64,000 nt of DNA from Escherichia coli (GTDB taxonomy: Bacteria > Pseudomonadota > Gammaproteobacteria > Enterobacterales > Enterobacteriaceae): assembly GCF_044324875.1 (NCBI RefSeq), contig NZ_CP172185.1. One strand, 5' to 3'. Under the pieces are notes generated by a model. The model did no database searches, was not told where the DNA came from, and worked only from the letters and a program-made list of their open reading frames with translations. Below are positions 1,843 to 49,210 of this stretch, piece by piece. A program made the position numbers and the translations under genes. Numbering within the stretch: the stretch's first letter is position 1; the number at the start of each line of letters is the position of its first letter.

Positions 1843-3387
1843 ATGGATGTCATTAAAAAGAAACATTGGTGGCAAAGCGACGCGCTGAAATGGTCAGTGT
1901 TAGGTCTGCTCGGCCTGCTGGTGGGTTACCTTGTTGTTTTAATGTACGCACAAGGGGAATACCTGTTCGCCATTACCACGCTGATATTGAGTTCAGCGGG
2001 GCTGTATATTTTCGCCAATCGTAAAGCCTACGCCTGGCGCTATGTTTACCCGGGAATGGCTGGAATGGGATTATTCGTCCTCTTCCCTTTGGTCTGCACC
2101 ATCGCCATTGCCTTCACCAACTACAGCAGCACTAACCAGCTGACTTTTGAACGTGCGCAGGAAGTGTTGTTAGATCGCTCCTGGCAAGCAGGCAAAACCT
2201 ATAATTTTGGTCTTTACCCGGCGGGCGATGAGTGGCAACTGGCGCTCAGCGACGGCGAAACCGGCAAAAATTACCTCTCCGACGCGTTTAAATTTGGCGG
2301 CGAGCAAAAACTGCAACTGAAAGAAACGACCGCCCAGCCCGAAGGCGAACGCGCGAATCTACGCGTGATTACCCAGAACCGTCAGGCGCTGAGTGACATT
2401 ACCGCCATTCTGCCGGATGGCAACAAAGTGATGATGAGCTCCCTGCGCCAGTTTTCTGGCACGCAGCCGCTCTACACACTCGACGGTGACGGCACGTTGA
2501 CGAATAATCAGAGCGGCGTGAAATATCGTCCGAATAACCAAATTGGCTTTTACCAGTCCATTACCGCCGACGGCAACTGGGGCGATGAAAAGCTAAGCCC
2601 CGGTTACACCGTGACCACTGGCTGGAAAAACTTTACCCGCGTCTTCACCGACGAAGGCATTCAGAAACCGTTCCTCGCCATTTTCGTCTGGACCGTGGTG
2701 TTCTCGCTGATCACTGTCTTTTTAACGGTGGCGGTCGGCATGGTTCTGGCGTGTCTGGTGCAGTGGGAAGCGTTGCGCGGCAAAGCGGTCTATCGCGTCC
2801 TGCTGATTCTGCCCTACGCGGTGCCATCGTTCATTTCAATCTTGATTTTCAAAGGGTTGTTTAACCAGAGCTTCGGTGAGATCAACATGATGTTGAGCGC
2901 GCTGTTTGGCGTGAAGCCCGCCTGGTTCAGCGATCCGACCACCGCCCGAACGATGCTGATTATCGTCAATACCTGGCTGGGTTATCCGTACATGATGATC
3001 CTCTGCATGGGCTTGCTGAAAGCGATTCCGGACGATTTGTATGAAGCCTCAGCAATGGATGGCGCAGGTCCGTTCCAGAACTTCTTTAAGATTACGCTGC
3101 CGCTGCTGATTAAACCGCTGACGCCGCTGATGATCGCCAGCTTCGCCTTTAACTTTAACAACTTCGTGCTGATTCAACTGTTAACCAACGGCGGCCCGGA
3201 TCGTCTTGGCACGACCACGCCAGCCGGTTATACCGACCTGCTTGTTAACTACACCTACCGCATCGCTTTTGAAGGCGGCGGGGGTCAGGACTTCGGTCTG
3301 GCGGCAGCAATTGCCACGCTGATCTTCCTGCTGGTGGGTGCGCTGGCGATAGTGAACCTGAAAGCCACGCGAATGAAGTTTGATTAA
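1843..3387 (+). CDS. malF: Maltose ABC transporter permease MalF (514 aa)
   Basis: ORF contains [26 protein letters not shown]...; start placed at the MDVIKKK methionine (ORF track begins 5 codons upstream). Confidence 0.95.
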
Positions 3388-3401
3388 GGGAGATAACAAA
3401 A

Positions 3402-4292
3402 ATGGCAATGGTCCAACCGAAATCGCAAAAAGCACGTTTGTTTATTACTCACCTGCTACTGCTACTTTTTATCGCGGCGATTATGTTCCCGCTGCTGATG
3501 GTCGTCGCTATCTCACTGCGCCAGGGGAACTTTGCGACCGGCAGCCTGATCCCGGAGCAAATCTCCTGGGATCACTGGAAACTGGCATTAGGTTTTAGCG
3601 TGGAACAGGCTGATGGTCGCGTTACACCGCCGCCGTTTCCGGTACTGCTATGGCTGTGGAACTCGGTAAAGGTCGCCGGGATTTCCGCGATTGGCATTGT
3701 GGCGCTCTCCACCACCTGCGCCTACGCTTTCGCCCGTATGCGCTTTCCAGGCAAAGCGACGCTGCTGAAAGGAATGCTGATTTTCCAGATGTTCCCGGCA
3801 GTACTTTCACTGGTCGCGTTGTATGCGTTGTTTGATCGTCTGGGTGAGTACATTCCATTCATTGGCCTGAATACACACGGCGGCGTAATTTTCGCGTATC
3901 TGGGTGGGATTGCGCTGCATGTCTGGACCATCAAAGGCTATTTCGAAACCATCGACAGTTCGCTGGAAGAAGCGGCGGCGCTGGATGGTGCGACACCGTG
4001 GCAAGCCTTCCGCCTTGTCTTGTTACCGCTGTCAGTACCGATTCTGGCGGTGGTGTTCATCCTGTCGTTTATCGCTGCCATTACTGAAGTTCCGGTCGCG
4101 TCGCTGTTACTGCGTGACGTAAATAGCTACACCCTGGCCGTGGGGATGCAGCAATACCTCAACCCGCAAAACTACCTGTGGGGTGACTTTGCTGCCGCTG
4201 CCGTGATGTCTGCATTACCGATCACCATCGTCTTCTTGCTGGCTCAACGCTGGCTGGTCAACGGCCTGACGGCAGGTGGTGTGAAAGGTTAA
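3402..4292 (+). CDS. malG: Maltose ABC transporter permease MalG (296 aa)
   Basis: Translation [40 protein letters not shown]...; 14 bp after malF with AGGGAGA RBS-like sequence. Confidence 0.97.
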
Positions 4293-4362
4293 AGATGTTG
4301 TTCTGCCAATGTTATGCCGCTGCACCCTCAACTTACGTTATCCCAACTTGTGACTGTTATTC

Positions 4363-4387
4363 GGCGCTCCACGGAGCGCCTTTTTTT
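4363..4387 (+). terminator. Rho-independent terminator downstream of malG (GGCGCTCC-ACG-GAGCGCC followed by T7)
   Basis: Perfect 8-bp GC-rich stem with 3-nt loop followed by TTTTTTT on the plus strand; overlaps the psiE stop codon. Confidence 0.7.
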
Positions 4388-4796
4388 ACTCCCGCTTCAA
4401 CCGTTTCGAATTACATAACCACAGGGTGATCACCAGCAACAGGATCGCTGCCGAGTAGATCAACACATCCAGTGGCGATTTATGATCGACGATGATCAAG
4501 CGCACAATGGCGGTGATCCCAATATAGACAAAGTAACGTAGCGGGAAGTGAAAACCGGACTGAAAGTACTTCACAATCAGCGCGATAAATTCGAAATAGA
4601 GAAAGTAAACCACCAGTCCTTCTACCAGCTCATATTTACTGGTTTGTTCTGGCGCGAACAGCACATCAGCCAGATGCACCGTTTCTTTGCCGAGGAAGAC
4701 AACCAAAATCAGGCCGAGGCACAGCAGGCCAAGATTGAGTACGGTCTGCAAAATGGTGGAGATAAACTCCACGCGCGGACGAGAGAGTGACGTCAT
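4386..4796 (-). CDS. psiE: Phosphate-starvation-inducible inner membrane protein PsiE (136 aa)
   Basis: Translation [47 protein letters not shown]... matches PsiE; correct length. Confidence 0.93.
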
Positions 4797-5010
4797 AGCA
4801 GTACCTCCTTCACAGTGGCGAGCTTCCTGTATAACGCAAAAATGTGACGGAGATCTATATTTTTTGTGTATGTTTTGTTCAGCTCAATTAAGTGGGCATC
4901 TCCCATCAACGTCGCATCTGACAAAACATACAGCCAAAAAAAATCACCCATTCAGGTGATTCCCAGCCACCAGCAATGCGCGAAAAATCGACAATGTTCC
5001 TCTGGAACAA

Positions 5011-14782: not shown

Positions 14783-15730
14783 ATGGAAAACAGTGACGAT
14801 ATCCGTTTGATTGTGAAGATTGCCCAACTCTATTACGAACAGGATATGACGCAGGCGCAAATCGCGCGCGAACTGGGTATTTACCGCACCACCATCAGCC
14901 GCTTGCTTAAACGAGGCCGCGATCAGGGAATTGTCACCATCGCCATCAACTATGACTACAACGAAAATCTCTGGCTGGAGCAGCAACTGAAGCAAAAGTT
15001 TGGCCTGAAAGACGTTGTGGTGGTGTCGGGAAATGATGAGGATGAAGAGACTCAACTGGCGATGATGGGGTTACACGGCGCGCAACTGCTGGATCGCTTG
15101 CTGGAACCTGGCGATATTGTCGGTTTTTCCTGGGGTCGCGCGGTGAGCGCACTGGTTGAAAACTTGCCGCAGGCGGGGCAATCGCGGCAGTTAATCTGCG
15201 TACCAATTATTGGCGGACCGTCCGGTAAACTCGAAAGCCGCTATCATGTAAACACATTAACCTACAGCGCGGCAGCGAAGCTGAAAGGGGAATCGCATCT
15301 CGCGGATTTTCCGGCTCTGCTGGATAACCCATTAATTCGTAATGGGATCATGCAGTCTCAGCACTTTAAAACCATCTCTGCCTACTGGGATAATCTGGAT
15401 GTCGCCCTGGTGGGAATTGGCTCACCGGCCATTCGCGACGGCGCTAACTGGCATGCGTTTTATGGTGGTGAAGAGAGTGACGACCTGAATGCCCGCCAGG
15501 TTGCTGGCGATATTTGCTCGCGCTTTTTTGATATTCACGGCGCAATGGTTGAAACGAATATGAGTGAAAAAACACTCTCTATCGAAATGAATAAATTAAA
15601 GCAGGCACGATATTCCATTGGCATTGCCATGAGTGAAGAAAAATACAGCGGAATAGTTGGTGCACTGCGTGGAAAATATATTAATTGTCTGGTAACGAAT
15701 AGCAGCACAGCTGAACTATTACTGAAATAA
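14783..15730 (+). CDS. sorC: SorC-family transcriptional regulator of the L-sorbose operon (315 aa)
   Basis: N-terminal HTH (DIRLIVKIAQLYYEQDMTQAQIARELGIYRTTISRLLKRGRDQGIV) plus sugar-binding domain; first gene of a sorCDFBAME-like cluster; start set at MENSDD (ORF track starts 28 codons upstream). Confidence 0.85.
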   Translation: MENSDDIRLIVKIAQLYYEQDMTQAQIARELGIYRTTISRLLKRGRDQGIVTIAINYDYNENLWLEQQLKQKFGLKDVVVVSGNDEDEETQLAMMGLHGAQLLDRLLEPGDIVGFSWGRAVSALVENLPQAGQSRQLICVPIIGGPSGKLESRYHVNTLTYSAAAKLKGESHLADFPALLDNPLIRNGIMQSQHFKTISAYWDNLDVALVGIGSPAIRDGANWHAFYGGEESDDLNARQVAGDICSRFFDIHGAMVETNMSEKTLSIEMNKLKQARYSIGIAMSEEKYSGIVGALRGKYINCLVTNSSTAELLLK

Positions 15731-15799
15731 AAATCTTCCCGATGTTTACCGTAATAAAAATTACGGCGGGTCCCTATTATCTAAAAACAGGAGTCTGTT

Positions 15800-16606
15800 A
15801 TGCAAACGTGGTTAAATTTGCAGGATAAAATCATTATCGTCACCGGCGGCGCATCCGGTATAGGTCTGGCGATTGTAGAGGAATTATTAGCACAAGGCGC
15901 GAATGTACAGATGGTCGATATTCACGGTGGCGATGGACAATATGAAGGTCATAAAGGCTATCAGTTTTGGCCGACCGATATTTCCAGCGCCAAAGAGGTA
16001 AATCATACGGTAGCAGAAATTATCCAGCGTTTTGGTCGCATCGACGGTCTGGTTAACAACGCCGGGGTCAATTTTCCGCGTCTGCTGGTCGATGAGAAAG
16101 CGCCTGCCGGGCAGTATGAACTCAACGAAGCTGCATTCGAAAAAATGGTCAATATCAACCAGAAAGGCGTTTTTCTGATGTCGCAGGCGGTGGCGCGACA
16201 GATGGTCAAACAACACGATGGCGTGATTGTGAATGTTTCCTCAGAAAGTGGGCTGGAAGGCTCAGAAGGCCAAAGCTGTTACGCCGCGACCAAAGCCGCG
16301 CTTAATAGCTTCACGCGATCCTGGTCGAAAGAATTGGGTAAACACGGTATCCGTGTAGTCGGTATCGCGCCGGGGATTCTGGAAAAAACCGGGCTACGCA
16401 CGCCGGAATATGAAGAAGCGCTGGCGTGGACGCGCAATATCACCGTCGAGCAGCTGCGTGAAGGCTATACCAAAAACGCCATTCCTATTGGGCGCGCCGG
16501 AAGATTAGCAGAAGTCGCTGATTTTGTTTGTTATCTGCTGTCTGAACGCGCCAGCTACATCACCGGAGTAACCACTAACATTGCGGGCGGCAAAACGCGC
16601 GGATAA
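15800..16606 (+). CDS. sorD: Short-chain dehydrogenase/reductase, sorbitol(glucitol)-6-phosphate dehydrogenase SorD-like (268 aa)
   Basis: Rossmann motif TGGASGIGLA near the N-terminus and YxxxK catalytic motif (YAATKAA); operon position. Confidence 0.85.
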   Translation: MQTWLNLQDKIIIVTGGASGIGLAIVEELLAQGANVQMVDIHGGDGQYEGHKGYQFWPTDISSAKEVNHTVAEIIQRFGRIDGLVNNAGVNFPRLLVDEKAPAGQYELNEAAFEKMVNINQKGVFLMSQAVARQMVKQHDGVIVNVSSESGLEGSEGQSCYAATKAALNSFTRSWSKELGKHGIRVVGIAPGILEKTGLRTPEYEEALAWTRNITVEQLREGYTKNAIPIGRAGRLAEVADFVCYLLSERASYITGVTTNIAGGKTRG

Positions 16607-16615
16607 GGAGGCTTT

Positions 16616-17023
16616 ATGGTCAACGCCATTTTTTGTGCCCACGGCAAATTAGCCTGCGCCATGCTGGAATCGGTTCAGATGGTTTACGGCAACGCCAATG
16701 TTGAAGCCGTTGAATTTGTACCCGGCGAGAACGCCGGAGACATTGTGGCAAAGCTGGAGAAGTTAGTGAGCATTCACAATCATGACGAGTGGCTAATCGC
16801 CGTGGATTTACAGTGCGGCAGCCCGTGGAATGCGGCAGCGATGCTTGCGATGCGCAATCCTCGCCTGCGGGTAATCAGCGGCCTTTCTCTGCCGCTGGCG
16901 CTCGAACTGGTTGATAACCAGGACAGCATGAATGTTGATGAACTGTGTGAACACCTGACGCAAATCGCAAAGCAATCCTGCGTCGTCTGGAGACAGGTGG
17001 CAACGGCAGAGGAGGATTTCTGA
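16616..17023 (+). CDS. sorF: PTS mannose/sorbose-family EIIA component (135 aa)
   Basis: Small EIIA-Man-like protein (MVNAIFCAHGKLACAMLESVQMVYG...), immediately followed by EIIB. Confidence 0.85.
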   Translation: MVNAIFCAHGKLACAMLESVQMVYGNANVEAVEFVPGENAGDIVAKLEKLVSIHNHDEWLIAVDLQCGSPWNAAAMLAMRNPRLRVISGLSLPLALELVDNQDSMNVDELCEHLTQIAKQSCVVWRQVATAEEDF

Positions 17024-17517
17024 TGAACATTACGCTCGCCCGCATTGATGACCGCCTGATCCACGGCCAGGTCACTACCGTCTGGTCTAAAGTGGCTAAC
17101 GCCCAGCGCATTATTATCTGCAATGACGAAGTTTATAACGATGAAGTTCGCCGGACATTATTGCGTCAGGCTGCGCCACCGGGAATGAAGGTTAACGTGG
17201 TCAATATTGAAAAAGCCGTCGCGGTTTATCACAACCCGCAATATCAGGACGAAACCGTTTTTTATCTTTTCACTCGCCCACAGGATGCCTTAGCGATGGT
17301 TCGCCAGGGGGTAAAAATAGGCACCCTGAATATTGGCGGCATGGCCTGGCGGCCCGGTAAAAAACAGTTAACCAAAGCGGTTTCATTAGATGATGATGAT
17401 ATTAACGCATTTCATGAGTTAAATAATCTTGGCGTCATACTGGATTTACGCGTCGTAGCGTCAGATCCCTCAATCAATATTATCGACAAAATAAACGAAC
17501 AGTTAATCGCAAATTAA
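17023..17517 (+). CDS. sorB: PTS mannose/sorbose-family EIIB component (164 aa)
   Basis: MNITLARIDDRLIHGQV... with the phosphorylatable His of EIIB-Man; start overlaps the sorF stop. Confidence 0.88.
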   Translation: MNITLARIDDRLIHGQVTTVWSKVANAQRIIICNDEVYNDEVRRTLLRQAAPPGMKVNVVNIEKAVAVYHNPQYQDETVFYLFTRPQDALAMVRQGVKIGTLNIGGMAWRPGKKQLTKAVSLDDDDINAFHELNNLGVILDLRVVASDPSINIIDKINEQLIAN

Positions 17518-17582
17518 ATAATAGCGCCTGTGTACATATGCTTTAACAGGCAGGGATGACGACACTTAAAAGGTGACAAATC

Positions 17583-18380
17583 ATGGAAATAAGTACCCTA
17601 CAAATCATTGCTATATTTCTTTTTTCCTGTATTGCCGGAATGGGCAGCGTGCTGGATGAATTTCAGACTCATCGCCCGTTAATTGCCTGTACGGTGATTG
17701 GTTTAATTCTCGGTGATTTAAAAACCGGAATAATACTCGGTGGTACGCTGGAATTGATAGCTCTCGGCTGGATGAACGTCGGCGCGGCGCAATCTCCGGA
17801 TTCTGCACTCGCCAGCATAATCTCCGCCATTCTTGTTATCGTTGGTCAGCAAAGCATCGCCACCGGAATCGCCATCGCGTTGCCTGTGGCTGCGGCAGGC
17901 CAGGTGCTGACGGTGTTTGCCCGTACCATCACCGTAGTGTTCCAGCACGCGGCGGATAAAGCAGCGGAAGAGGCGCGGTTTCGCACTCTCGATATTCTGC
18001 ATGTCTCCGCACTTGGCGTGCAGGCGCTGCGCGTTGCTATTCCGGCACTGATTGTCTCGCTGTTCGTCAGCGCCGATATGGTCAGCAATATGTTAAACGC
18101 CATTCCCGAATTTGTGACCCGAGGACTACAGATTGCTGGCGGTTTTATCGTGGTGGTCGGTTACGCCATGGTGCTACGTATGATGGGCGTGAAATATTTG
18201 ATGCCTTTCTTTTTCCTCGGTTTCCTCGCAGGTGGCTACCTCGATCTCAGTCTGCTGGCGTTCGGTGGCGTCGGCGTGATCATGGCCCTGGTCTACATCC
18301 AGCTAAATCCACAGTGGCGTAAAGCTGAACCTCAACTCCAGGCCACCACCTCCACCGCCCTTGACCAACTTGACGATTAA
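17583..18380 (+). CDS. sorA: PTS mannose/sorbose-family EIIC membrane component (265 aa)
   Basis: Hydrophobic multi-pass ORF (MEISTLQIIAIFLFSCIAGMGSVLDEF...), EIIC-Man-like. Confidence 0.88.
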   Translation: MEISTLQIIAIFLFSCIAGMGSVLDEFQTHRPLIACTVIGLILGDLKTGIILGGTLELIALGWMNVGAAQSPDSALASIISAILVIVGQQSIATGIAIALPVAAAGQVLTVFARTITVVFQHAADKAAEEARFRTLDILHVSALGVQALRVAIPALIVSLFVSADMVSNMLNAIPEFVTRGLQIAGGFIVVVGYAMVLRMMGVKYLMPFFFLGFLAGGYLDLSLLAFGGVGVIMALVYIQLNPQWRKAEPQLQATTSTALDQLDD

Positions 18381-18390
18381 CGGAGCCATC

Positions 18391-19215
18391 ATGGAACAGA
18401 GAAAAATTACACGCAGCGATCTGGTGAGCATGTTTCTGCGCTCCAACCTGCAACAGGCGTCCTTTAACTTTGAACGTATTCACGGGCTGGGTTTTTGCTA
18501 CGACATGATCCCCGCCATCAAACGACTTTACCCATTAAAAGAGGATCAGGTTGCGGCGCTCAGGCGACACCTGGTGTTCTTCAATACCACGCCAGCCGTA
18601 TGTGGCCCGGTCATCGGCGTCACTGCCGCCATGGAAGAGGCGCGAGCCAACGGCGCGGAAATTGATGACGGTACCATTAACGGCATCAAAGTCGGTCTGA
18701 TGGGACCATTGGCAGGAGTTGGCGATCCACTGGTCTGGGGAACGCTGCGCCCGATTACCGCCGCGCTCGGCGCATCTCTGGCACTTTCGGGCAACATTCT
18801 CGGCCCGCTGCTGTTTTTCTTTATTTTCAATGCGGTGCGTCTGGCGATGAAGTGGTATGGCCTACAGCTCGGCTTTCGCAAAGGGGTGAATATCGTCAGC
18901 GATATGGGCGGGAATGTGCTGCAAAAACTCACCGAAGGCGCGTCGATTCTCGGACTGTTTGTGATGGGCGTGCTGGTGACCAAATGGACGTCAATCAACG
19001 TACCGTTGGTGGTTTCACAAACGCATGCCGCCGATGGCTCCACCGTCACCATGACCGTGCAGAACATTCTCGACCAACTTTGCCCTGGTTTGCTGGCGCT
19101 CGGTCTGACGCTACTGATGGTTCGTCTGCTCAACAAAAAAATTAACCCGGTATGGCTGATTTTCGCCCTGTTTGGCTTAGGGATTATCGGCAATGCGCTG
19201 GGCTTCCTGTCCTGA
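18391..19215 (+). CDS. sorM: PTS mannose/sorbose-family EIID membrane component (274 aa)
   Basis: MEQRKITRSDLVSMFLRSNLQQASFNFERIHGLGF... typical EIID-Man N-terminus; GGAG RBS 7 nt upstream of this ATG. Confidence 0.88.
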   Translation: MEQRKITRSDLVSMFLRSNLQQASFNFERIHGLGFCYDMIPAIKRLYPLKEDQVAALRRHLVFFNTTPAVCGPVIGVTAAMEEARANGAEIDDGTINGIKVGLMGPLAGVGDPLVWGTLRPITAALGASLALSGNILGPLLFFFIFNAVRLAMKWYGLQLGFRKGVNIVSDMGGNVLQKLTEGASILGLFVMGVLVTKWTSINVPLVVSQTHAADGSTVTMTVQNILDQLCPGLLALGLTLLMVRLLNKKINPVWLIFALFGLGIIGNALGFLS

Positions 19216-19266
19216 TTCTTCGCCCCGGCACGACTGCCGGGGCCATCGCTCAACATGAGGTGGTTT

Positions 19267-20496
19267 ATGAAAACAACAGCTCTGCGTCTTTATGGTAAAC
19301 GTGATTTACGCCTGGAAACCTTTGATCTTCCTGAAATGCAGGAGGATGAAATCCTCGCGGCGGTGGTCACTGACAGCCTGTGCCTCTCTTCCTGGAAAGA
19401 GGCCAATCTGGGTGAAAACCATAAAAAAGTACCCGATGATGTGGCGACCAATCCCATCATCATCGGCCACGAATTTTGCGGCGATATTCTGGCCGTGGGT
19501 AAAAAGTGGCAGCACAAATTCCAGCCGGGTCAGCGTTATGTGATTCAGGCCAACCTGCAATTCCCTGACCGCCCGGATTGCCCCGGCTACTCCTTCCCGT
19601 GGGTAGGCGGCGAAGCGACGCATGTGGTTATTCCCAACGAGGTCATGGAACAAGATTGCCTGCTGGCATACGACGGCGAAACCTATTTTGAAGGCTCGCT
19701 GGTTGAACCGCTTTCCTGCGTGATTGGCGCGTTCAACGCCAACTATCATCTTCAGGAAGGTAGTTATAACCACACGATGGGGATTCGCCCGCAAGGGCGC
19801 ACGCTGATCCTCGGCGGCACCGGACCAATGGGACTGTTGGCGATTGATTATGCGCTGCATGGACCCATTAACCCGTCGCTGCTCGTCATTACCGATACCG
19901 ACAACGATAAATTGAGTTATGCGCGCAAGCACTATCCATCAGAATCGCAAACACTGATTCATTATCTCAATGCCACCGATGCAGCATTTGATACGTTAAT
20001 GGCGCTGAGTGGCGGTCACGGCTTCGATGATATTTTCGTCTTTGTGCCTAATGAAGGACTGGTGACTCTCGCCTCTTCCTTGCTGGCGACAGATGGTTGC
20101 CTGAATTTCTTCGCCGGACCGCAGGATAAACATTTCAGCGCGCCAATTAATTTCTACGATGTGCATTATGCATTTACCCACTACGTGGGCACGTCAGGCG
20201 GCAATACCGATGACATGCGCGCAGCAGTCAAATTGATTGAAGAGAAAAAAGTGCAGGCCGCAAAAGTGGTAACACATATTCTTGGGCTGAATGCCGCGGG
20301 CGAAACCACGCTTGAATTGCCTGCCGTCGGCGGCGGCAAAAAGCTGGTGTATACCGGGAAATACCTGCCGCTTATGTCACTCACGCAGATTCAGGATCAA
20401 GCACTGGCGGCAATTCTGGCGCGTCATCAGGGGATCTGGTCCGGTGAGGCGGAGCAATATCTGCTCACTCATGCAGAGGCAATTTCCCATGATTAA
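19267..20496 (+). CDS. sorE: L-sorbose-1-phosphate reductase SorE-like, zinc/MDR-type alcohol dehydrogenase fold (409 aa)
   Basis: Last gene of the sor cluster; MDR-family features (GHEFCGDI); start at MKTTALRL preceded by GGTGG RBS (ORF track starts 4 codons earlier). Confidence 0.8.
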   Translation: MKTTALRLYGKRDLRLETFDLPEMQEDEILAAVVTDSLCLSSWKEANLGENHKKVPDDVATNPIIIGHEFCGDILAVGKKWQHKFQPGQRYVIQANLQFPDRPDCPGYSFPWVGGEATHVVIPNEVMEQDCLLAYDGETYFEGSLVEPLSCVIGAFNANYHLQEGSYNHTMGIRPQGRTLILGGTGPMGLLAIDYALHGPINPSLLVITDTDNDKLSYARKHYPSESQTLIHYLNATDAAFDTLMALSGGHGFDDIFVFVPNEGLVTLASSLLATDGCLNFFAGPQDKHFSAPINFYDVHYAFTHYVGTSGGNTDDMRAAVKLIEEKKVQAAKVVTHILGLNAAGETTLELPAVGGGKKLVYTGKYLPLMSLTQIQDQALAAILARHQGIWSGEAEQYLLTHAEAISHD

Positions 20497-20654
20497 TCGC
20501 GCTACTTAACTCTGCATGTCGCTGGCTGGTCGCCGCGGCAACTTCGCGACCGGATGTGCGGCTGATTGCTGAAGCAGCACAATTTGCATGAGAAGGATAA
20601 AAAATATCAGCGCCTTAAGGGGCGCTCAAATTGGTGGCAAAGTACACATTGTTT

Positions 20655-28531: not shown

Positions 28532-32432
<3,901 letters not shown>

Positions 32433-36761: not shown

Positions 36762-37205
36762 ATGGTTATTAGTATTCGCCGCTCACGGCATGAGGAAGGG
36801 GAGGAACTCGTTGCGATTTGGTGTCGTTCTGTCGATGCCACTCACGATTTTTTATCAGCAGAGTATCGGGCCGAGCTGGAAGAGCTGGTGCGTTCCTTCC
36901 TGCCGGAAGCGCCGTTGTGGGTCGCGGTTAATGAGCGGGATCGGCCGGTTGGGTTCATGTTGTTAAGTGGGCAGCATATGGATGCGCTGTTTATCGATCC
37001 TGATGTGCGCGGCTGCGGCGTGGGTCGGATGCTGGTGGAACATGCGCTCTCGATGGCACCGGAACTGACAACCAATGTTAATGAGCAAAATAAGCAGGCT
37101 GTTGGGTTCTATAAGAAGATGGGTTTTAAGGTTACGGGACGCTCTGAGGTGGACGATTTGGGGAAACCGTATCCATTGCTGAATCTGGCATATGTGGGGG
37201 AATAA
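36762..37205 (+). CDS. yjaB: GNAT-family N-acetyltransferase YjaB (147 aa)
   Basis: Acetyl-CoA binding motif region (RGCGVGRMLVEHAL); position between metA and rrnE 5S end. Confidence 0.9.
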   Translation: MVISIRRSRHEEGEELVAIWCRSVDATHDFLSAEYRAELEELVRSFLPEAPLWVAVNERDRPVGFMLLSGQHMDALFIDPDVRGCGVGRMLVEHALSMAPELTTNVNEQNKQAVGFYKKMGFKVTGRSEVDDLGKPYPLLNLAYVGE

Positions 37206-37290
37206 GCTGCCCCCTATCGTGCTATCGTGCCTGCGTAAGCTGGAGCAGACGCGCCAGCGTCGCACCCGGCATTTTTTTCACCAACGCAAA

Positions 37291-37314
37291 AAGGCCATCC
37301 TGACGGATGGCCTT
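37291..37314 (-). terminator. rrnE operon terminator (T1-like hairpin AAGGCCATCCGTCAGGATGGCCTT on the minus strand)
   Basis: Perfect hairpin 13 bp downstream of the 5S 3' end, followed on the minus strand by TTTTGCGTTGGTGAAAAAAA. Confidence 0.8.
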
Positions 37315-37326
37315 TCGCTTAATTTG

Positions 37327-37446
37327 ATGCCTGGCAGTTCCCTACTCTCGCATGGGGAGACCCCACACTACCATCGGCGCTACGGCGTTTCACTTCTGAG
37401 TTCGGCATGGGGTCAGGTGGGACCACCGCGCTACGGCCGCCAGGCA
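37327..37446 (-). rRNA. rrfE: 5S ribosomal RNA (rrnE operon)
   Basis: Reverse complement reads TGCCTGGCGGCCGTAGCGCGGTGGTCCCACCTGACCCCATGCCGAACTCAGAAGTGAAACGCCGTAGCGCCGATGG...CCAGGCAT, the E. coli 5S sequence, 120 nt. Confidence 0.98.
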
Positions 37447-37544
37447 AATTCTGTTTTATCAACACGTCTCGTTATGACCTGTCGATTTAATCTGTATCAG
37501 GCTGAAAATCTTTCTCTCATCCGCCAAAACATCTTCGGCGTTGT

Positions 37545-47174: not shown

Positions 47175-48547
47175 CCTTGTGGGTCCTTACGCGTAATATT
47201 GACCGGAAGCCAGAGGGTGAACGTTGCGCCTTTTCCCTCCTGGCTTGCGACCTGAATTGTACCACCGTGTTGTTCAACAATATTATGCACGACCGCCAGC
47301 CCCAGTCCGGTACCTTCGGCTTTGGTGGTGAAGTACGGGGTGAAGATGGCTTCAAGCTGATCTGCCGCAATTCCCTTACCGCTGTCGGTAACGCTGATTT
47401 TCACGCCCGCGCCGCTTTCGCTGGCCGTCACGCTAATCACACCATGTTGACCAATCGCCTGAATAGCATTGAGATAGAGATTCAACAGGACCTGAGTCAG
47501 CCTGTCCGGATCGGCCTGAATTTCCGGTAATGTGTCGTTGGCGGTAAAGCGTAACTGGATCTCCCGGCAGTTTGCATCCTGGCTTACCAGCTGTAATGAG
47601 TGGTTAATCAGCGTGTTGAGATCCACCGCCTGCAAAGCCAGATGCGTTGGCTTAACCAGTTCCAGCAACTCGCTTACCACGCGGTTTAAACGGTCGGCTT
47701 CTTTCGCCATCACCTGCGCCAGTTGATGCGCTTCTCCCCCTGCTGGCGCGCGTTCGGCAAAGTATTTCGCCAGCCCTTTAATCGAGGAAAGTGGGTTACG
47801 GATTTCGTGGGCAACTCCTGCCGCAAGATGCCCCAGCGCCACCAGCTTCTCTTTGCGCTTCATTTCATCCTGCAATAGCTGGCGCGAGCGCAGATAGCGA
47901 CGATACCAGAAGAATGACAACACGCTTGCCAGCAAGACCGTCGCCAGGGCGAAGAGGATAATCAGGGTGTTTCTCTGCTCACGATCCTCAGCACTCACAA
48001 TGTTACTGGCGTCGAAAGCGATAAAAATTGCTTGTGGTGTCGCGGCATACTGCTGCATATGGCGCATCCGGTGCATTCCAGCAGCAAACATCGGTTGAAA
48101 CTGGCGATAAATTTCCAGAACAGGCTCGCCGTCTGCGCTATCGATCCGCCGCCACGCTTCTTCATCTCCCGGATGTAACTGCTGCATTTCCTGCGGGGAA
48201 TAAAGCTGTTTTCCCACCATGCCGGAGTTGCTATGCATCACGATTGTTCCTTGTTCATCCGTGACCGCAAACCAACGTACACCAGGTTGCCCGGCCATTT
48301 CTTCCAGTAATGCCTGCTGCTGCGCATGATGCATGCGCATCCCCATGCCGACGCGCGAGCCGGATTCGAGAGCACGGATAAGTACACTGCCTTTTTCCAG
48401 CAGCGTTTGTCTGGCGGCGGCAGTCTCGCGCCCATAATCGCGAATCACTGTCACCGCAAACAGCCCCACCAGCCCAACAATGACCACGGGGAGGATCGCG
48501 CTTAACCATTTAGCTAAGGAGTCTTTAGAACGTTGCATAAAACGCAT
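47171..48547 (-). CDS. zraS: Sensor histidine kinase ZraS/HydH (458 aa ORF; start uncertain by a few codons)
   Basis: Two TM segments, HAMP-less periplasmic domain, H-box (HEIRNPL) and ATPase N/G boxes. Confidence 0.93.
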   Translation of the reverse strand: MRFMQRSKDSLAKWLSAILPVVIVGLVGLFAVTVIRDYGRETAAARQTLLEKGSVLIRALESGSRVGMGMRMHHAQQQALLEEMAGQPGVRWFAVTDEQGTIVMHSNSGMVGKQLYSPQEMQQLHPGDEEAWRRIDSADGEPVLEIYRQFQPMFAAGMHRMRHMQQYAATPQAIFIAFDASNIVSAEDREQRNTLIILFALATVLLASVLSFFWYRRYLRSRQLLQDEMKRKEKLVALGHLAAGVAHEIRNPLSSIKGLAKYFAERAPAGGEAHQLAQVMAKEADRLNRVVSELLELVKPTHLALQAVDLNTLINHSLQLVSQDANCREIQLRFTANDTLPEIQADPDRLTQVLLNLYLNAIQAIGQHGVISVTASESGAGVKISVTDSGKGIAADQLEAIFTPYFTTKAEGTGLGLAVVHNIVEQHGGTIQVASQEGKGATFTLWLPVNITRKDPQG

Positions 48548-48578
48548 CTTCTTCTTTGCCTGCTCATCCCTTTCTGAC

Positions 48579-48594
48579 AGCAGAAATCATGCCA
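48579..48594 (-). promoter_or_regulatory. Candidate sigma54 promoter for zraSR (TGGCAT-N5-CTGCT on the minus strand)
   Basis: GG/GC dinucleotides at -24/-12 spacing; 32 bp upstream of the zraS start. Confidence 0.45.
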
Positions 48595-48645
48595 TCTTTT
48601 ATCAGCGCTTACCCTGCGCTGTAACACAAAGGCTTAAGTTTCAAT

Positions 48646-48691
48646 GAGTAAAAATGACTCGCTACCCGCAGCAGGCGAGTCATTCTTACTC
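48646..48691. promoter_or_regulatory. Inverted repeat, probable ZraR enhancer (UAS) shared by the divergent zraP and zraSR promoters
   Basis: GAGTAAAAATGACTCGC ... GCGAGTCATTCTTACTC: 17-bp arms matching at 16/17 separated by 12 bp, midway between the two sigma54 promoters. Confidence 0.6.
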
Positions 48692-48733
48692 GTTTATCAT
48701 GCCAGATTACCCGTCATATCAGCGTTTCATCGT

Positions 48734-48749
48734 TGGCACGGAAGATGCA
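48734..48749 (+). promoter_or_regulatory. Sigma54 promoter of zraP (TGGCAC-N5-ATGCA)
   Basis: Near-consensus -24/-12 element 36 bp upstream of the zraP ATG. Confidence 0.7.
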
Positions 48750-48784
48750 ATACCCGAAGTAAGACAACCACTGGAGGATTAACC

Positions 48785-49210
48785 ATGAAACGGAACACGA
48801 AAATTGCCCTGGTAATGATGGCGCTTTCAGCAATGGCGATGGGATCGACATCTGCATTTGCTCACGGCGGACACGGTATGTGGCAGCAAAATGCCGCGCC
48901 TTTGACCAGCGAACAACAGACAGCGTGGCAGAAAATCCATAATGACTTTTACGCTCAAAGCAGCGCACTGCAACAGCAACTGGTGACGAAGCGTTATGAA
49001 TACAATGCCCTGTTAGCCGCGAACCCACCGGATAGCAGCAAAATTAACGCGGTCGCCAAAGAGATGGAGAATTTGCGTCAGTCGTTAGATGAGTTACGGG
49101 TGAAACGGGATATTGCGATGGCTGAAGCGGGTATTCCGCGCGGAGCCGGAATGGGCATGGGCTACGGCGGCTGCGGTGGTGGCGGTCATATGGGTATGGG
49201 CCACTGGTAA
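48785..49210 (+). CDS. zraP: Zinc-resistance-associated periplasmic protein ZraP (141 aa, signal peptide, Gly/Met/His-rich C-terminus)
   Basis: MKRNTKIALVMMALSAMAMGSTSAFAHGGHGMWQQ...GMGMGYGGCGGGGHMGMGHW; GGAGGA RBS 7 nt upstream of this ATG (ORF track begins 47 codons earlier, inside the promoter region). Confidence 0.93.
   Translation: MKRNTKIALVMMALSAMAMGSTSAFAHGGHGMWQQNAAPLTSEQQTAWQKIHNDFYAQSSALQQQLVTKRYEYNALLAANPPDSSKINAVAKEMENLRQSLDELRVKRDIAMAEAGIPRGAGMGMGYGGCGGGGHMGMGHW

What the first reader, a model, noticed from the sequence alone, without database searches (positions are those of the whole stretch)
4293..4385. xylE (xylose/H+ symporter) absent between malG and psiE
In the K-12 reference order (psiE, xylE, malG) a ~1.5-kb xylE gene separates psiE and malG. 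Here malG and psiE are convergent and only 93 bp apart, and the spacer carries a strong plus-strand terminator that now overlaps the psiE stop codon. This is either a clean deletion or the ancestral state; either way it is a gene-content difference from K-12 that affects low-affinity xylose uptake.
Basis: partly seen in the sequence, partly recalled or inferred. Interest (0 to 1): 0.35.

Follow-up and report, generated by a model that had tools for sequence, protein, structure and literature searches.

The report
xylE-less malG–psiE junction, known polymorphism
This E. coli-like strain lacks the low-affinity xylose transporter gene xylE that K-12 carries between malG and psiE, but a third of sequenced E. 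coli share this already-published gene-content difference, so it is ordinary.

Summary
malG (3402-4292, +) and psiE (4386-4796, -) converge 93 bp apart. K-12 carries an extra 1797-bp xylE cassette exactly at this point, and no xylE remnant exists anywhere in the window.

The state is common. 1786 of 5426 complete E. coli genomes have the same contiguous junction, and 3639 carry xylE. Sampled xylE-less genomes are B2-type, D (strain 042), F (IAI39, CE10) or window-like. xylE-positive ones are A, B1-like and E.

Four other Escherichia species and about 50 other Enterobacteriaceae species show the same junction, with the terminator T-run running into the psiE stop codon. The overlap is therefore old, not newly created.

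The 93-bp "spacer" is not empty. It is 100% identical to the K-12 malG 3'UTR, which encodes the published MalH small RNA and its terminator.

Whether the empty site is original or a scarless loss cannot be read from the junction, because T-runs bracket the cassette. Strain HH97 has K-12-identical flanks yet lacks xylE. Phylogenetic distribution favours an inherited, probably original, empty site.

Absence of xylE (strain 042, 2010) and its phylogroup bias (2019) are published. Interest is low.

The parts
3402..4292 (+). malG, the maltose ABC transporter permease gene and last gene of malEFG.
   Evidence: It is an ORF of 296 aa. It is 100% identical to MalG of strain GMF054 (annotated WP_001252069.1) and 99.7% identical to K-12 MalG. 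It matches Pfam BPD_transp_1 at 60.3 bits against a cut-off of 26.4.
4284..4387 (+). malG 3' end and 3'UTR, matching the published MalH sRNA region. The 5' end given here is inferred from the published length of 104 nt, counted back from the end of the T-run.
   Evidence: Window 4279-4387 is 109/109 identical to K-12. [quoted passage not shown] Blocks of this sequence (ATGCCACTGC..CCTCAAC.., ACTTGTGACTGT) recur across Enterobacteriaceae spacers. There is no Rfam match.
4363..4387 (+). Intrinsic terminator of malEFG/MalH: hairpin GGCGCUC-CACG-GAGCGCC followed by U7.
   Evidence: Found by the terminator scan. The hairpin appears in the minimum-free-energy and centroid folds at -14.7 kcal/mol. 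Stem sequences differ between genera while staying complementary, for example GGCGCTC/GAGCGCC, GGCGGCC/GGCCGCC and CAGCGGCC/GGCCGCTG (by inspection).
4381..4388 (.). Empty xylE site: the T7 run plus A, where K-12 carries the 1797-bp xylE cassette.
   Evidence: In K-12 the window match breaks inside this T-run. The left piece ends at window 4387 and the right piece starts at 4383. K-12 reads ...GAGCGCC-T7-C[cassette]...GTGCTGAC-T5-AC.
4386..4796 (-). psiE, the phosphate-starvation-inducible inner-membrane protein gene, convergent with malG.
   Evidence: It is an ORF of 136 aa, 100% identical to K-12 PsiE WP_000202902.1. It matches Pfam PsiE at 80.6 bits against a cut-off of 23.9.

Best explanation
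The window carries the 'empty-site' allele of the malG-psiE junction. The strain inherited this state from its lineage rather than losing xylE privately. It shares the state with E. coli phylogroups B2, D and F, with other Escherichia species and with most Enterobacteriaceae.

At this locus malEFG transcription, and the MalH sRNA cut from the malG 3'UTR, end at a hairpin whose U-tract runs into the stop codon of the convergent psiE gene. K-12 and the other A, B1 and E strains carry a 1.8-kb cassette at that T-run, made of the xylE promoter, xylE and its own terminator. Most likely that cassette-bearing state is the derived one within E. coli.

The functional consequence is inferred, apart from the published phenotype of strain 042. 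The strain lacks the low-affinity proton symporter XylE and must take up xylose through other routes. The high-affinity XylFGH system is the expected one, but it lies outside the window and was not checked.
For: Frequency:
- 1786 of 5426 complete E. coli genomes have the contiguous junction.
- 3639 of 5426 have the xylE cassette. The two counts are complementary (sum 5425), so absence at this site means absence from the genome.

Lineage pattern:
- xylE-less genomes with the B2 marker profile (arpA absent, yjaA present) are JA0266, TUM2367, AREA_504 and EcN_Sk.
- xylE-less reference strains are 042 (D), IAI39 and CE10 (F).
- xylE-less genomes with arpA present and yjaA absent are GMF054, 'capsule mutant 26a', 32A22CPO009 and the window.
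- xylE-positive genomes are K-12 (A), three genomes with a short arpA and no yjaA, O157:H7 and O111:H8.
- arpA is matched in 4101 genomes. 4101 minus 3639 is 462, which fits a D-like class that has arpA but lacks xylE.

The window's flanks are closest to the xylE-less GMF054 group, at 0.85% difference against 2.8% to K-12.

Outgroups: E. albertii, E. whittamii, Escherichia sp. E1V33 and sp. MOD1-EC7003 all have a homologous 93-94-bp spacer and no xylE. The terminator / T-run / TTA junction recurs in about 50 species of more than 15 genera.

Other, unrelated cargo sits at the same T-run in other species, as expected if the empty site is the base state.

Published work: 042 lacks xylE and grows less well on xylose (PMC2808357). 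xylE is reconstructed as enriched in the B1A sublineage (PMC6896753).
Against: The xylE cassette is old. Synonymous divergence of xylE between E. coli and Citrobacter (dS 1.0-1.4) or K. oxytoca (1.27) equals that of the flanking core genes malG (0.9-1.3) and yjbH (1.1-1.7). The cassette has the same ends in all three genera.

The flanks of xylE-positive E. coli are E. coli-type right up to the cassette, with no imported SNPs. No foreign donor is visible, so the cassette may have been in the Escherichia gene pool all along.

A scarless deletion between the bracketing T-runs would recreate exactly the junction seen here. HH97 shows such an allele on a K-12-identical haplotype.

The short local tree (2.3 kb) does not root cleanly. 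The link between phylogroup and xylE state rests on about 20 typed genomes plus marginal totals, not on a full cross-tabulation.
Confidence: 0.6

Rival explanations
1. Ancient scarless loss. The xylE cassette was already at this site in the ancestor of Escherichia, inherited from the common ancestor with Citrobacter and Klebsiella. The empty allele of B2/D/F E. coli and of the other Escherichia species would then arise from one or a few precise T-run-to-T-run deletions, later spread by homologous recombination. The window would carry a derived allele, though still an inherited one.
For: xylE dS tracks core-gene dS in every genus pair tested. The cassette ends are homologous in E. coli, Citrobacter and K. 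oxytoca. The flanks of xylE-positive E. coli are fully E. coli-type up to the cassette, including the terminator loop 12 nt from the boundary, which differs in Citrobacter. A scarless xylE-less allele exists on a K-12-identical haplotype (HH97).
Against: This needs several independent precise losses, or inter-species spread, in E. albertii, E. whittamii, two further Escherichia species and three E. coli phylogroups. The demonstrable xylE losses elsewhere leave scars: a 382-bp remnant in C. braakii and an IS1-mediated deletion in PCN061. dS near 1 is close to saturation, so it only excludes recent transfer. The same site holds unrelated cargo in other species, which argues that the empty site is the base state.
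Confidence: 0.3
2. Recent private deletion. The window strain or its immediate ancestors carried xylE and lost it by slippage or microhomology recombination between the T7 run after the malG terminator and the T5 run after the xylE terminator.
For: The 5-7-bp T-run microhomology brackets the 1797-bp cassette. HH97 shows that this outcome occurs: it has no mismatches to K-12 over 1500 bp to the left and 925 bp to the right of the junction, and no cassette.
Against: The window's flanks group with xylE-less genomes (GMF054 0.85%, 'capsule 26a' 1.7%, 32A22CPO009 1.9%). They are 2.2-3.0% from every xylE-positive genome sampled. Of the 1786 xylE-less genomes, only 2 match K-12 flanks at 100%; the next best is 99.2%.
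Confidence: 0.08
3. Assembly or sequence artefact: a collapsed or mis-joined contig that dropped xylE.
For: None found.
Against: The identical junction is present in 1786 independent complete genomes and in four other Escherichia species. The window is collinear with GMF054 across the site.
Confidence: 0.01

Closest known systems
E. coli K-12 malG-xylE-psiE locus (MG1655 derivative MGY, NZ_CP019629.1)
   Same: The flanking genes and their orientation are the same. The 109 bp from the end of malG through the terminator T-run are identical. PsiE is 100% identical.
   Different: K-12 has 1797 extra bp between the T7 run and the psiE stop codon: a 276-bp AT-rich (34% GC) xylE upstream region, xylE (491 aa) and its own terminator.
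Enteroaggregative E. coli 042 (phylogroup D), published as lacking xylE (Chaudhuri et al. 2010, PMC2808357)
   Same: It has the same contiguous malG-psiE junction (H89). The paper attributes the lower xylose metabolism of 042 to the missing low-affinity symporter, with xylFGH still present.
   Different: It is a different strain. Its flanks were compared here only with the synthetic K-12 junction lacking xylE (99.1% identity), not with the window directly.
MalH, the sRNA derived from the malG 3'UTR (Iosub et al. 2020, PMC8081044)
   Same: The position and the sequence are those of K-12 MalH: the end of malG, the stop codon, the 3'UTR and the Rho-independent terminator.
   Different: MalH was characterised in K-12, where the xylE promoter region follows the terminator. 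Here, and in most Enterobacteriaceae, the MalH terminator abuts the stop codon of the convergent psiE. Expression was not tested here.
Phylogroup-level xylE distribution in E. coli (Gonzalez-Alba et al. 2019, PMC6896753)
   Same: The paper reports xylE among the carbohydrate transporters enriched in the B1A sublineage of the EB1A lineage. This agrees with the A / B1-like / E versus B2 / D / F split seen here.
   Different: The paper names B1A. Here O157:H7 (phylogroup E) genomes also show the xylE-positive split pattern. The junction anatomy is not discussed in the passage read.

Membership tests
XylE (MFS D-xylose:H+ symporter) gene at the malG-psiE site | An ORF homologous to K-12 XylE lies between malG and psiE, or elsewhere in the window. 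| tested here: not met
   tblastn with K-12 XylE against the window gives no hit at E<=1e-3. The 93-bp gap is fully accounted for by the malG 3'UTR.
MalH sRNA (malG 3'UTR-derived) | It lies at the 3' end of malG and includes the stop codon and the 3'UTR up to the operon terminator. | tested here: met
   Coordinates 4284-4387. The published description was read.
MalH sRNA (malG 3'UTR-derived) | Sequence identity with the experimentally characterised K-12 MalH. | tested here: met
   109/109 identical to K-12 over window 4279-4387.
MalH sRNA (malG 3'UTR-derived) | RNase E processing, Hfq binding and regulation of ompC, MicA and lamB. | not testable with these tools
   These are experimental properties reported for K-12 only (PMC8081044). 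Rfam 15 returned no match for this region.
Intrinsic (Rho-independent) terminator | A G+C-rich hairpin followed directly by a U-tract. | tested here: met
   The stem has 7 pairs (6 G-C), the loop is 4 nt and T7 follows. Hairpin energy is -14.7 kcal/mol, and the hairpin is kept in both the minimum-free-energy and centroid folds.
Intrinsic (Rho-independent) terminator | The structure is kept across species through changes on both sides of the stem. | tested here: met
   By inspection of about 60 spacers, the stems GGCGCTC/GAGCGCC, GGCGGCC/GGCCGCC, GGCGATC/GATCGCC and CAGCGGCC/GGCCGCTG are all complementary. No formal covariation statistic was run.
Bidirectional terminator shared by malEFG and psiE | A U-tract follows the hairpin on both strands. 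| tested here: not met
   On the psiE strand the hairpin (-13.8 kcal/mol) is followed by GAAUAACAGUC, which is not U-rich. Only the A-tract upstream is present.
PsiE family | A match to the Pfam PsiE domain above the curated cut-off. | tested here: met
   PF06146 at 80.6 bits against 23.9. The protein is 100% identical to WP_000202902.1.
Mobile element (transposon or island) as carrier of the xylE cassette | A transposase, integrase or inverted terminal repeats within the cassette. | tested here: not met
   The annotated K-12 cassette contains only xylE. Its ends are the two terminator T-runs. The short TTTTA / TTTTTAC direct repeats are equally explained by terminator U-tracts.
Phylogroup B2/F of E. 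coli (Clermont scheme, recalled from memory) | arpA is absent between aceK and iclR. | tested here: not met
   The window is collinear with GMF054 through the full-length arpA (annotated espL4) at 28532-30718. yjaA is absent between yjaB and rrf in GMF054, with which the window is collinear. chuA and TspE4.C2 lie outside the window.

The most novel reading that the evidence does not exclude
The T-run between the MalH/malEFG terminator and the psiE stop codon may be a conserved, reversible cargo-docking site in Enterobacteriaceae.

Unrelated cassettes have landed there: xylE; a LacI/PTS/deaminase/asparaginase set; a LysR+HAD pair; and a NUDIX gene. Because each cassette ends in its own terminator T-run, it could be excised without a scar. 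The presence or absence of xylE could then flip on an otherwise identical haplotype (K-12 versus HH97), leaving empty sites that cannot be told apart from ancestral ones.

A corollary follows for xylE-less strains. The psiE 3' end and the MalH sRNA share one hairpin, which could couple phosphate-starvation transcription to MalH levels.
Probability: 0.3. Interest if true: 0.3.

Novelty: already known. Interest (0 to 1): 0.1.

Why it matters
The practical value is modest. The absence predicts weaker growth or uptake on xylose at high substrate concentrations, as reported for strain 042. That is relevant for metabolic models and for strain engineering on lignocellulose sugars.

xylE presence is also a cheap lineage marker, separating A/B1/E from B2/D/F.

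For annotation, the useful points are that the 93-bp 'spacer' is the MalH sRNA, and that K-12 is the unusual state at this locus relative to the genus and the family. The scarless-excision geometry is a small cautionary example: an apparently 'ancestral' empty site can be a secondary loss.

Tried and rejected
- Rfam scan of 4150-4950 at E<=1 gave no family. MalH is apparently not in the library, so the identification rests on sequence identity to K-12 and on the paper.
- Flank SNPs were examined for a signature of imported DNA next to the cassette. No fixed differences separate xylE-positive from xylE-less E. coli near the junction, so polarity could not be read from them.
- A local NJ tree of 2.3 kb of flanks with outgroups did not root cleanly: MOD1-EC7003 fell inside E. 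coli and ST865 looks recombinant. It was used only for nearest-neighbour distances.
- dS of xylE against flanking genes was computed to detect recent inter-genus transfer. The values are equal, so recent transfer from Citrobacter or Klebsiella is rejected, but values near 1 cannot resolve older events.
- Shigella as the source of the window was judged unlikely, because the window is collinear with E. coli GMF054 over 64 kb with no large insertion. This is inference only.
- A paper search for xylE + psiE + malG together found nothing.
My recollection that Salmonella LT2 has malG next to psiE is untested.
- A shared bidirectional terminator was considered. It is not supported by the sequence, because there is no U-tract on the psiE strand.

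Full report
**Observation.** The window has malE (499-1689), malF, and malG (3402-4292) on the plus strand, and psiE (4386-4796) on the minus strand. The gap between malG and psiE is 93 bp. Both flanking proteins match their Pfam families above the cut-off. PsiE is 100% identical to the K-12 protein and MalG is 99.7% identical.

The gap ends in a hairpin, GGCGCTC-CACG-GAGCGCC (4363-4380), followed by T7 (4381-4387). This is the only terminator-like site found between 4100 and 5000. The hairpin folds at -14.7 kcal/mol. The complement of the psiE stop codon, TTA, lies at 4386-4388 and so uses the last two T of the run.

**Comparison with K-12.** Alignment shows that the window equals K-12 minus 1797 bp. 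The left match runs through window 4387 and the right match starts at 4383.

K-12 reads ...GAGCGCC-T7-C, then the xylE upstream region, xylE and the xylE terminator CAGCACGCC...GGCGTGCTG, then AC-T5-AC (psiE stop). The cassette is therefore bracketed by the T-runs of two terminators. A third TTTTTAC lies 57 bp inside its left end.

Window 4279-4387 is 109/109 identical to K-12, and XylE has no tblastn match anywhere in the window. There is no remnant.

**What the 'spacer' is.** The end of malG, its stop codon and the 3'UTR up to the Rho-independent terminator give the 104-nt MalH sRNA. MalH is an RNase E product of malEFG that pairs with ompC and ompA and tunes MicA and LamB (PMC8081044). Because the window sequence is identical to K-12 over this stretch, it carries an intact MalH region. 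Expression was not tested, and Rfam has no model that matches.

**Frequency in E. coli.** The contiguous malG-psiE junction is found in 1786 of 5426 complete RefSeq genomes. The xylE cassette is found in 3639 of 5426. The counts are complementary, so genomes that lack xylE here lack it altogether.

Thirteen genomes have partial cassettes. Examples are an IS1 insertion in LAU-OXA and an IS1-associated deletion running from xylE to yjbE in PCN061.

**Lineage pattern.** The scheme is recalled from memory.

- xylE-less, arpA absent, yjaA present (B2 profile): JA0266, TUM2367, AREA_504, EcN_Sk.
- xylE-less reference strains: 042 (D), IAI39 and CE10 (F).
- xylE-less, full-length arpA present, yjaA absent: GMF054, 'capsule mutant 26a', 32A22CPO009 and the window.
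- xylE-positive: K-12 (A), three genomes with a short arpA and no yjaA, and O157:H7 and O111:H8 genomes, which show the split match.

arpA is matched in 4101 genomes. 4101 minus 3639 is 462, which is the size expected for a class that has arpA but lacks xylE. This is a consistency check on totals, not a cross-tabulation.

Both facts are published. Strain 042 lacks xylE and metabolises xylose less well, with xylFGH remaining (PMC2808357). xylE is listed among the transporters enriched in the B1A sublineage (PMC6896753).

**Outgroups.** A PsiE-based scan of one genome per species returned 80 loci. E. albertii, E. whittamii, Escherichia sp. E1V33 and sp. MOD1-EC7003 have a homologous 93-94-bp spacer and no xylE.

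Enterobacter, Kluyvera, Leclercia, Lelliottia, Trabulsiella, Kosakonia, most Klebsiella, Raoultella and several Citrobacter species also have malG and psiE adjacent. In these the terminator T-run runs directly into TTA. The overlap of terminator and psiE stop codon is therefore an old, conserved arrangement and not a by-product of a deletion.

xylE sits at this site only in eight loci of the Citrobacter freundii complex, in C. sedlakii and in K. oxytoca. C. braakii has a 382-bp spacer made of the two ends of the cassette, which is what a scarred loss looks like.

**Is the empty site original or a loss?** The evidence points both ways.

For 'original':
- The outgroups and the B2/D/F distribution favour it, with one gain on the branch to A/B1/E being the most parsimonious history.
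- Unrelated cargo sits at the same T-run in other species. Examples are a 4.7-kb set of LacI regulator, PTS EIICB, glucosamine-6-P-isomerase-like and asparaginase genes; a LysR+HAD pair; a NUDIX gene; and 4.9 kb beyond xylE in C. sedlakii.

For 'ancient loss':
- xylE is as diverged between genera as its core neighbours. dS between E. coli and Citrobacter is 1.0-1.4, against malG 0.9-1.3 and yjbH 1.1-1.7. For K. oxytoca the figures are 1.27 against 1.06.
- The cassette has homologous ends in all three genera.
- The flanks of xylE-positive E. coli carry no foreign SNPs up to the boundary.

The junction itself cannot decide, because a deletion between the T-runs recreates the empty site exactly. 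Strain HH97 shows this. It is identical to K-12 for 1500 bp to the left and 925 bp to the right of the junction, yet lacks the cassette. EcN_Sk is identical over 1500 + 499 bp.

For the window itself a private deletion is unlikely. Its flanks are nearest to xylE-less genomes (0.85% from GMF054) and 2.2-3.0% from all sampled xylE-positive genomes.

**Mechanism and consequence.**
- Shown: xylE is absent, and the MalH region, the terminator and psiE are intact.
- Inferred: the strain lacks low-affinity proton-coupled xylose uptake and relies on other transporters. XylFGH is expected, but it lies outside the window.
- Inferred: malEFG/MalH transcripts terminate at the hairpin that abuts psiE. On the psiE strand the hairpin is not followed by a U-tract, so a canonical two-way terminator is not supported.

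**Verdict.** The feature is a common, lineage-associated and already published gene-content polymorphism. The only additions are anatomical:
- The spacer is MalH.
- The terminator / stop-codon overlap is ancestral.
- The cassette is bracketed by T-runs, which permits scarless loss.
- The site collects other cargo in other species.

Interest is low.

Noticed in passing
L094 (E. coli HH97, NZ_CP116409.1) 1-2420; L095 (EcN_Sk, NZ_CP172017.1) 1-1994: Two xylE-less genomes have flanks 100% identical to K-12. HH97 matches over 1500 bp to the left and 925 bp to the right of the junction, and EcN_Sk over 1500 + 499 bp. The only difference from K-12 is the missing 1797-bp cassette. HH97 also has an internal arpA deletion, a truncated yjaA and no sor operon. 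EcN_Sk has the B2 marker profile, yet is 99.5-99.9% identical to K-12 over most of the 36 kb examined.
   Followed up: partly
L042 (Citrobacter sp. 18056), L046 (Enterobacteriaceae bacterium RIT691), L038 (Pseudescherichia vulneris), L040 (C. sedlakii): the stretch between malG and psiE: Different cargo sits immediately after the same malG terminator T-run. L042 has 4.7 kb with a LacI regulator, PTS EIICB, a glucosamine-6-P-isomerase-like gene and an asparaginase. L046 has 1.8 kb with LysR and a HAD hydrolase. L038 has a NUDIX gene. L040 has xylE plus 4.9 kb including a GntR/UTRA regulator. The site looks like a recurrent insertion point.
   Followed up: partly
L022 (Citrobacter braakii ATCC 51113), 382-bp malG-psiE spacer: The spacer consists of the left end of the xylE cassette, a fragment of xylE coding sequence and the xylE terminator. 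It is an internally deleted xylE remnant, in contrast to the clean empty site of the window.
   Followed up: partly
L097 (E. coli PCN061) 2405-3784; H31 (LAU-OXA): PCN061 keeps only the first ~280 bp of the cassette. An IS1A copy follows and then pgi, so xylE, psiE and yjbE-H are deleted. LAU-OXA has an IS1 inserted in xylE. In all, 13 genomes with a cassette match cover less than 80% of the cassette.
   Followed up: partly
window 4386-28500: No complete E. coli RefSeq genome among 5426 is more than 98.9% identical to this 24-kb stretch. The best matches are GN06156, GMF065 and KK05-19. The nearest non-coli Escherichia locus (sp. MOD1-EC7003) is 95.4% identical. The source lineage seems poorly represented among complete genomes.
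   Followed up: partly
window 14784-20497: An L-sorbose utilisation cluster (regulator, SDR oxidoreductase, PTS IIA-IID, sorE) lies between rluF and pepE, by collinearity with annotated GMF054. It is absent in K-12, HH97, ST865 and MS6192, where rluF and pepE are adjacent. It is another gene-content difference from K-12 in the same window.
   Followed up: no
window 28532-30718 and about 37205-37490: Full-length arpA (annotated espL4, 728 aa in GMF054) is present between iclR and aceK. B1-like genomes carry a shorter version of 524 aa or a pseudogene, and B2-type genomes have none. yjaA is absent between yjaB and the 5S rRNA gene. Near 37310-37339 the window is about 139 bp shorter than GMF054.
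   Followed up: partly
window 47968-48943 (5' part of zraS to the zraP promoter): This stretch is only 88.9% identical to GMF054, with about 200 bp unalignable. It is 99.5% identical to other E. coli genomes, and 376 genomes match at >=99%. It looks like a strongly dimorphic allele within the species.
   Followed up: partly
window 4881-4939 (between psiE and the small periplasmic-protein gene): There is an indel polymorphism here. K-12, 7_26_9A and HH97 have a longer segment (112 bp against 57 bp) that carries an annotated 144-bp hypothetical ORF. The window, GMF054 and the B2-type genomes have the short form, with further variation among the D-like genomes.
   Followed up: no
L001 (K-12) 4089-4152: The E. 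coli xylE cassette has 57 bp at its left end that Citrobacter cassettes lack. This segment ends in a second TTTTTAC, identical to the motif at the psiE junction. xylE GC3 is 0.54, against about 0.635 for malG, psiE and yjbH, and the 276-bp xylE upstream region is 34% GC.
   Followed up: no
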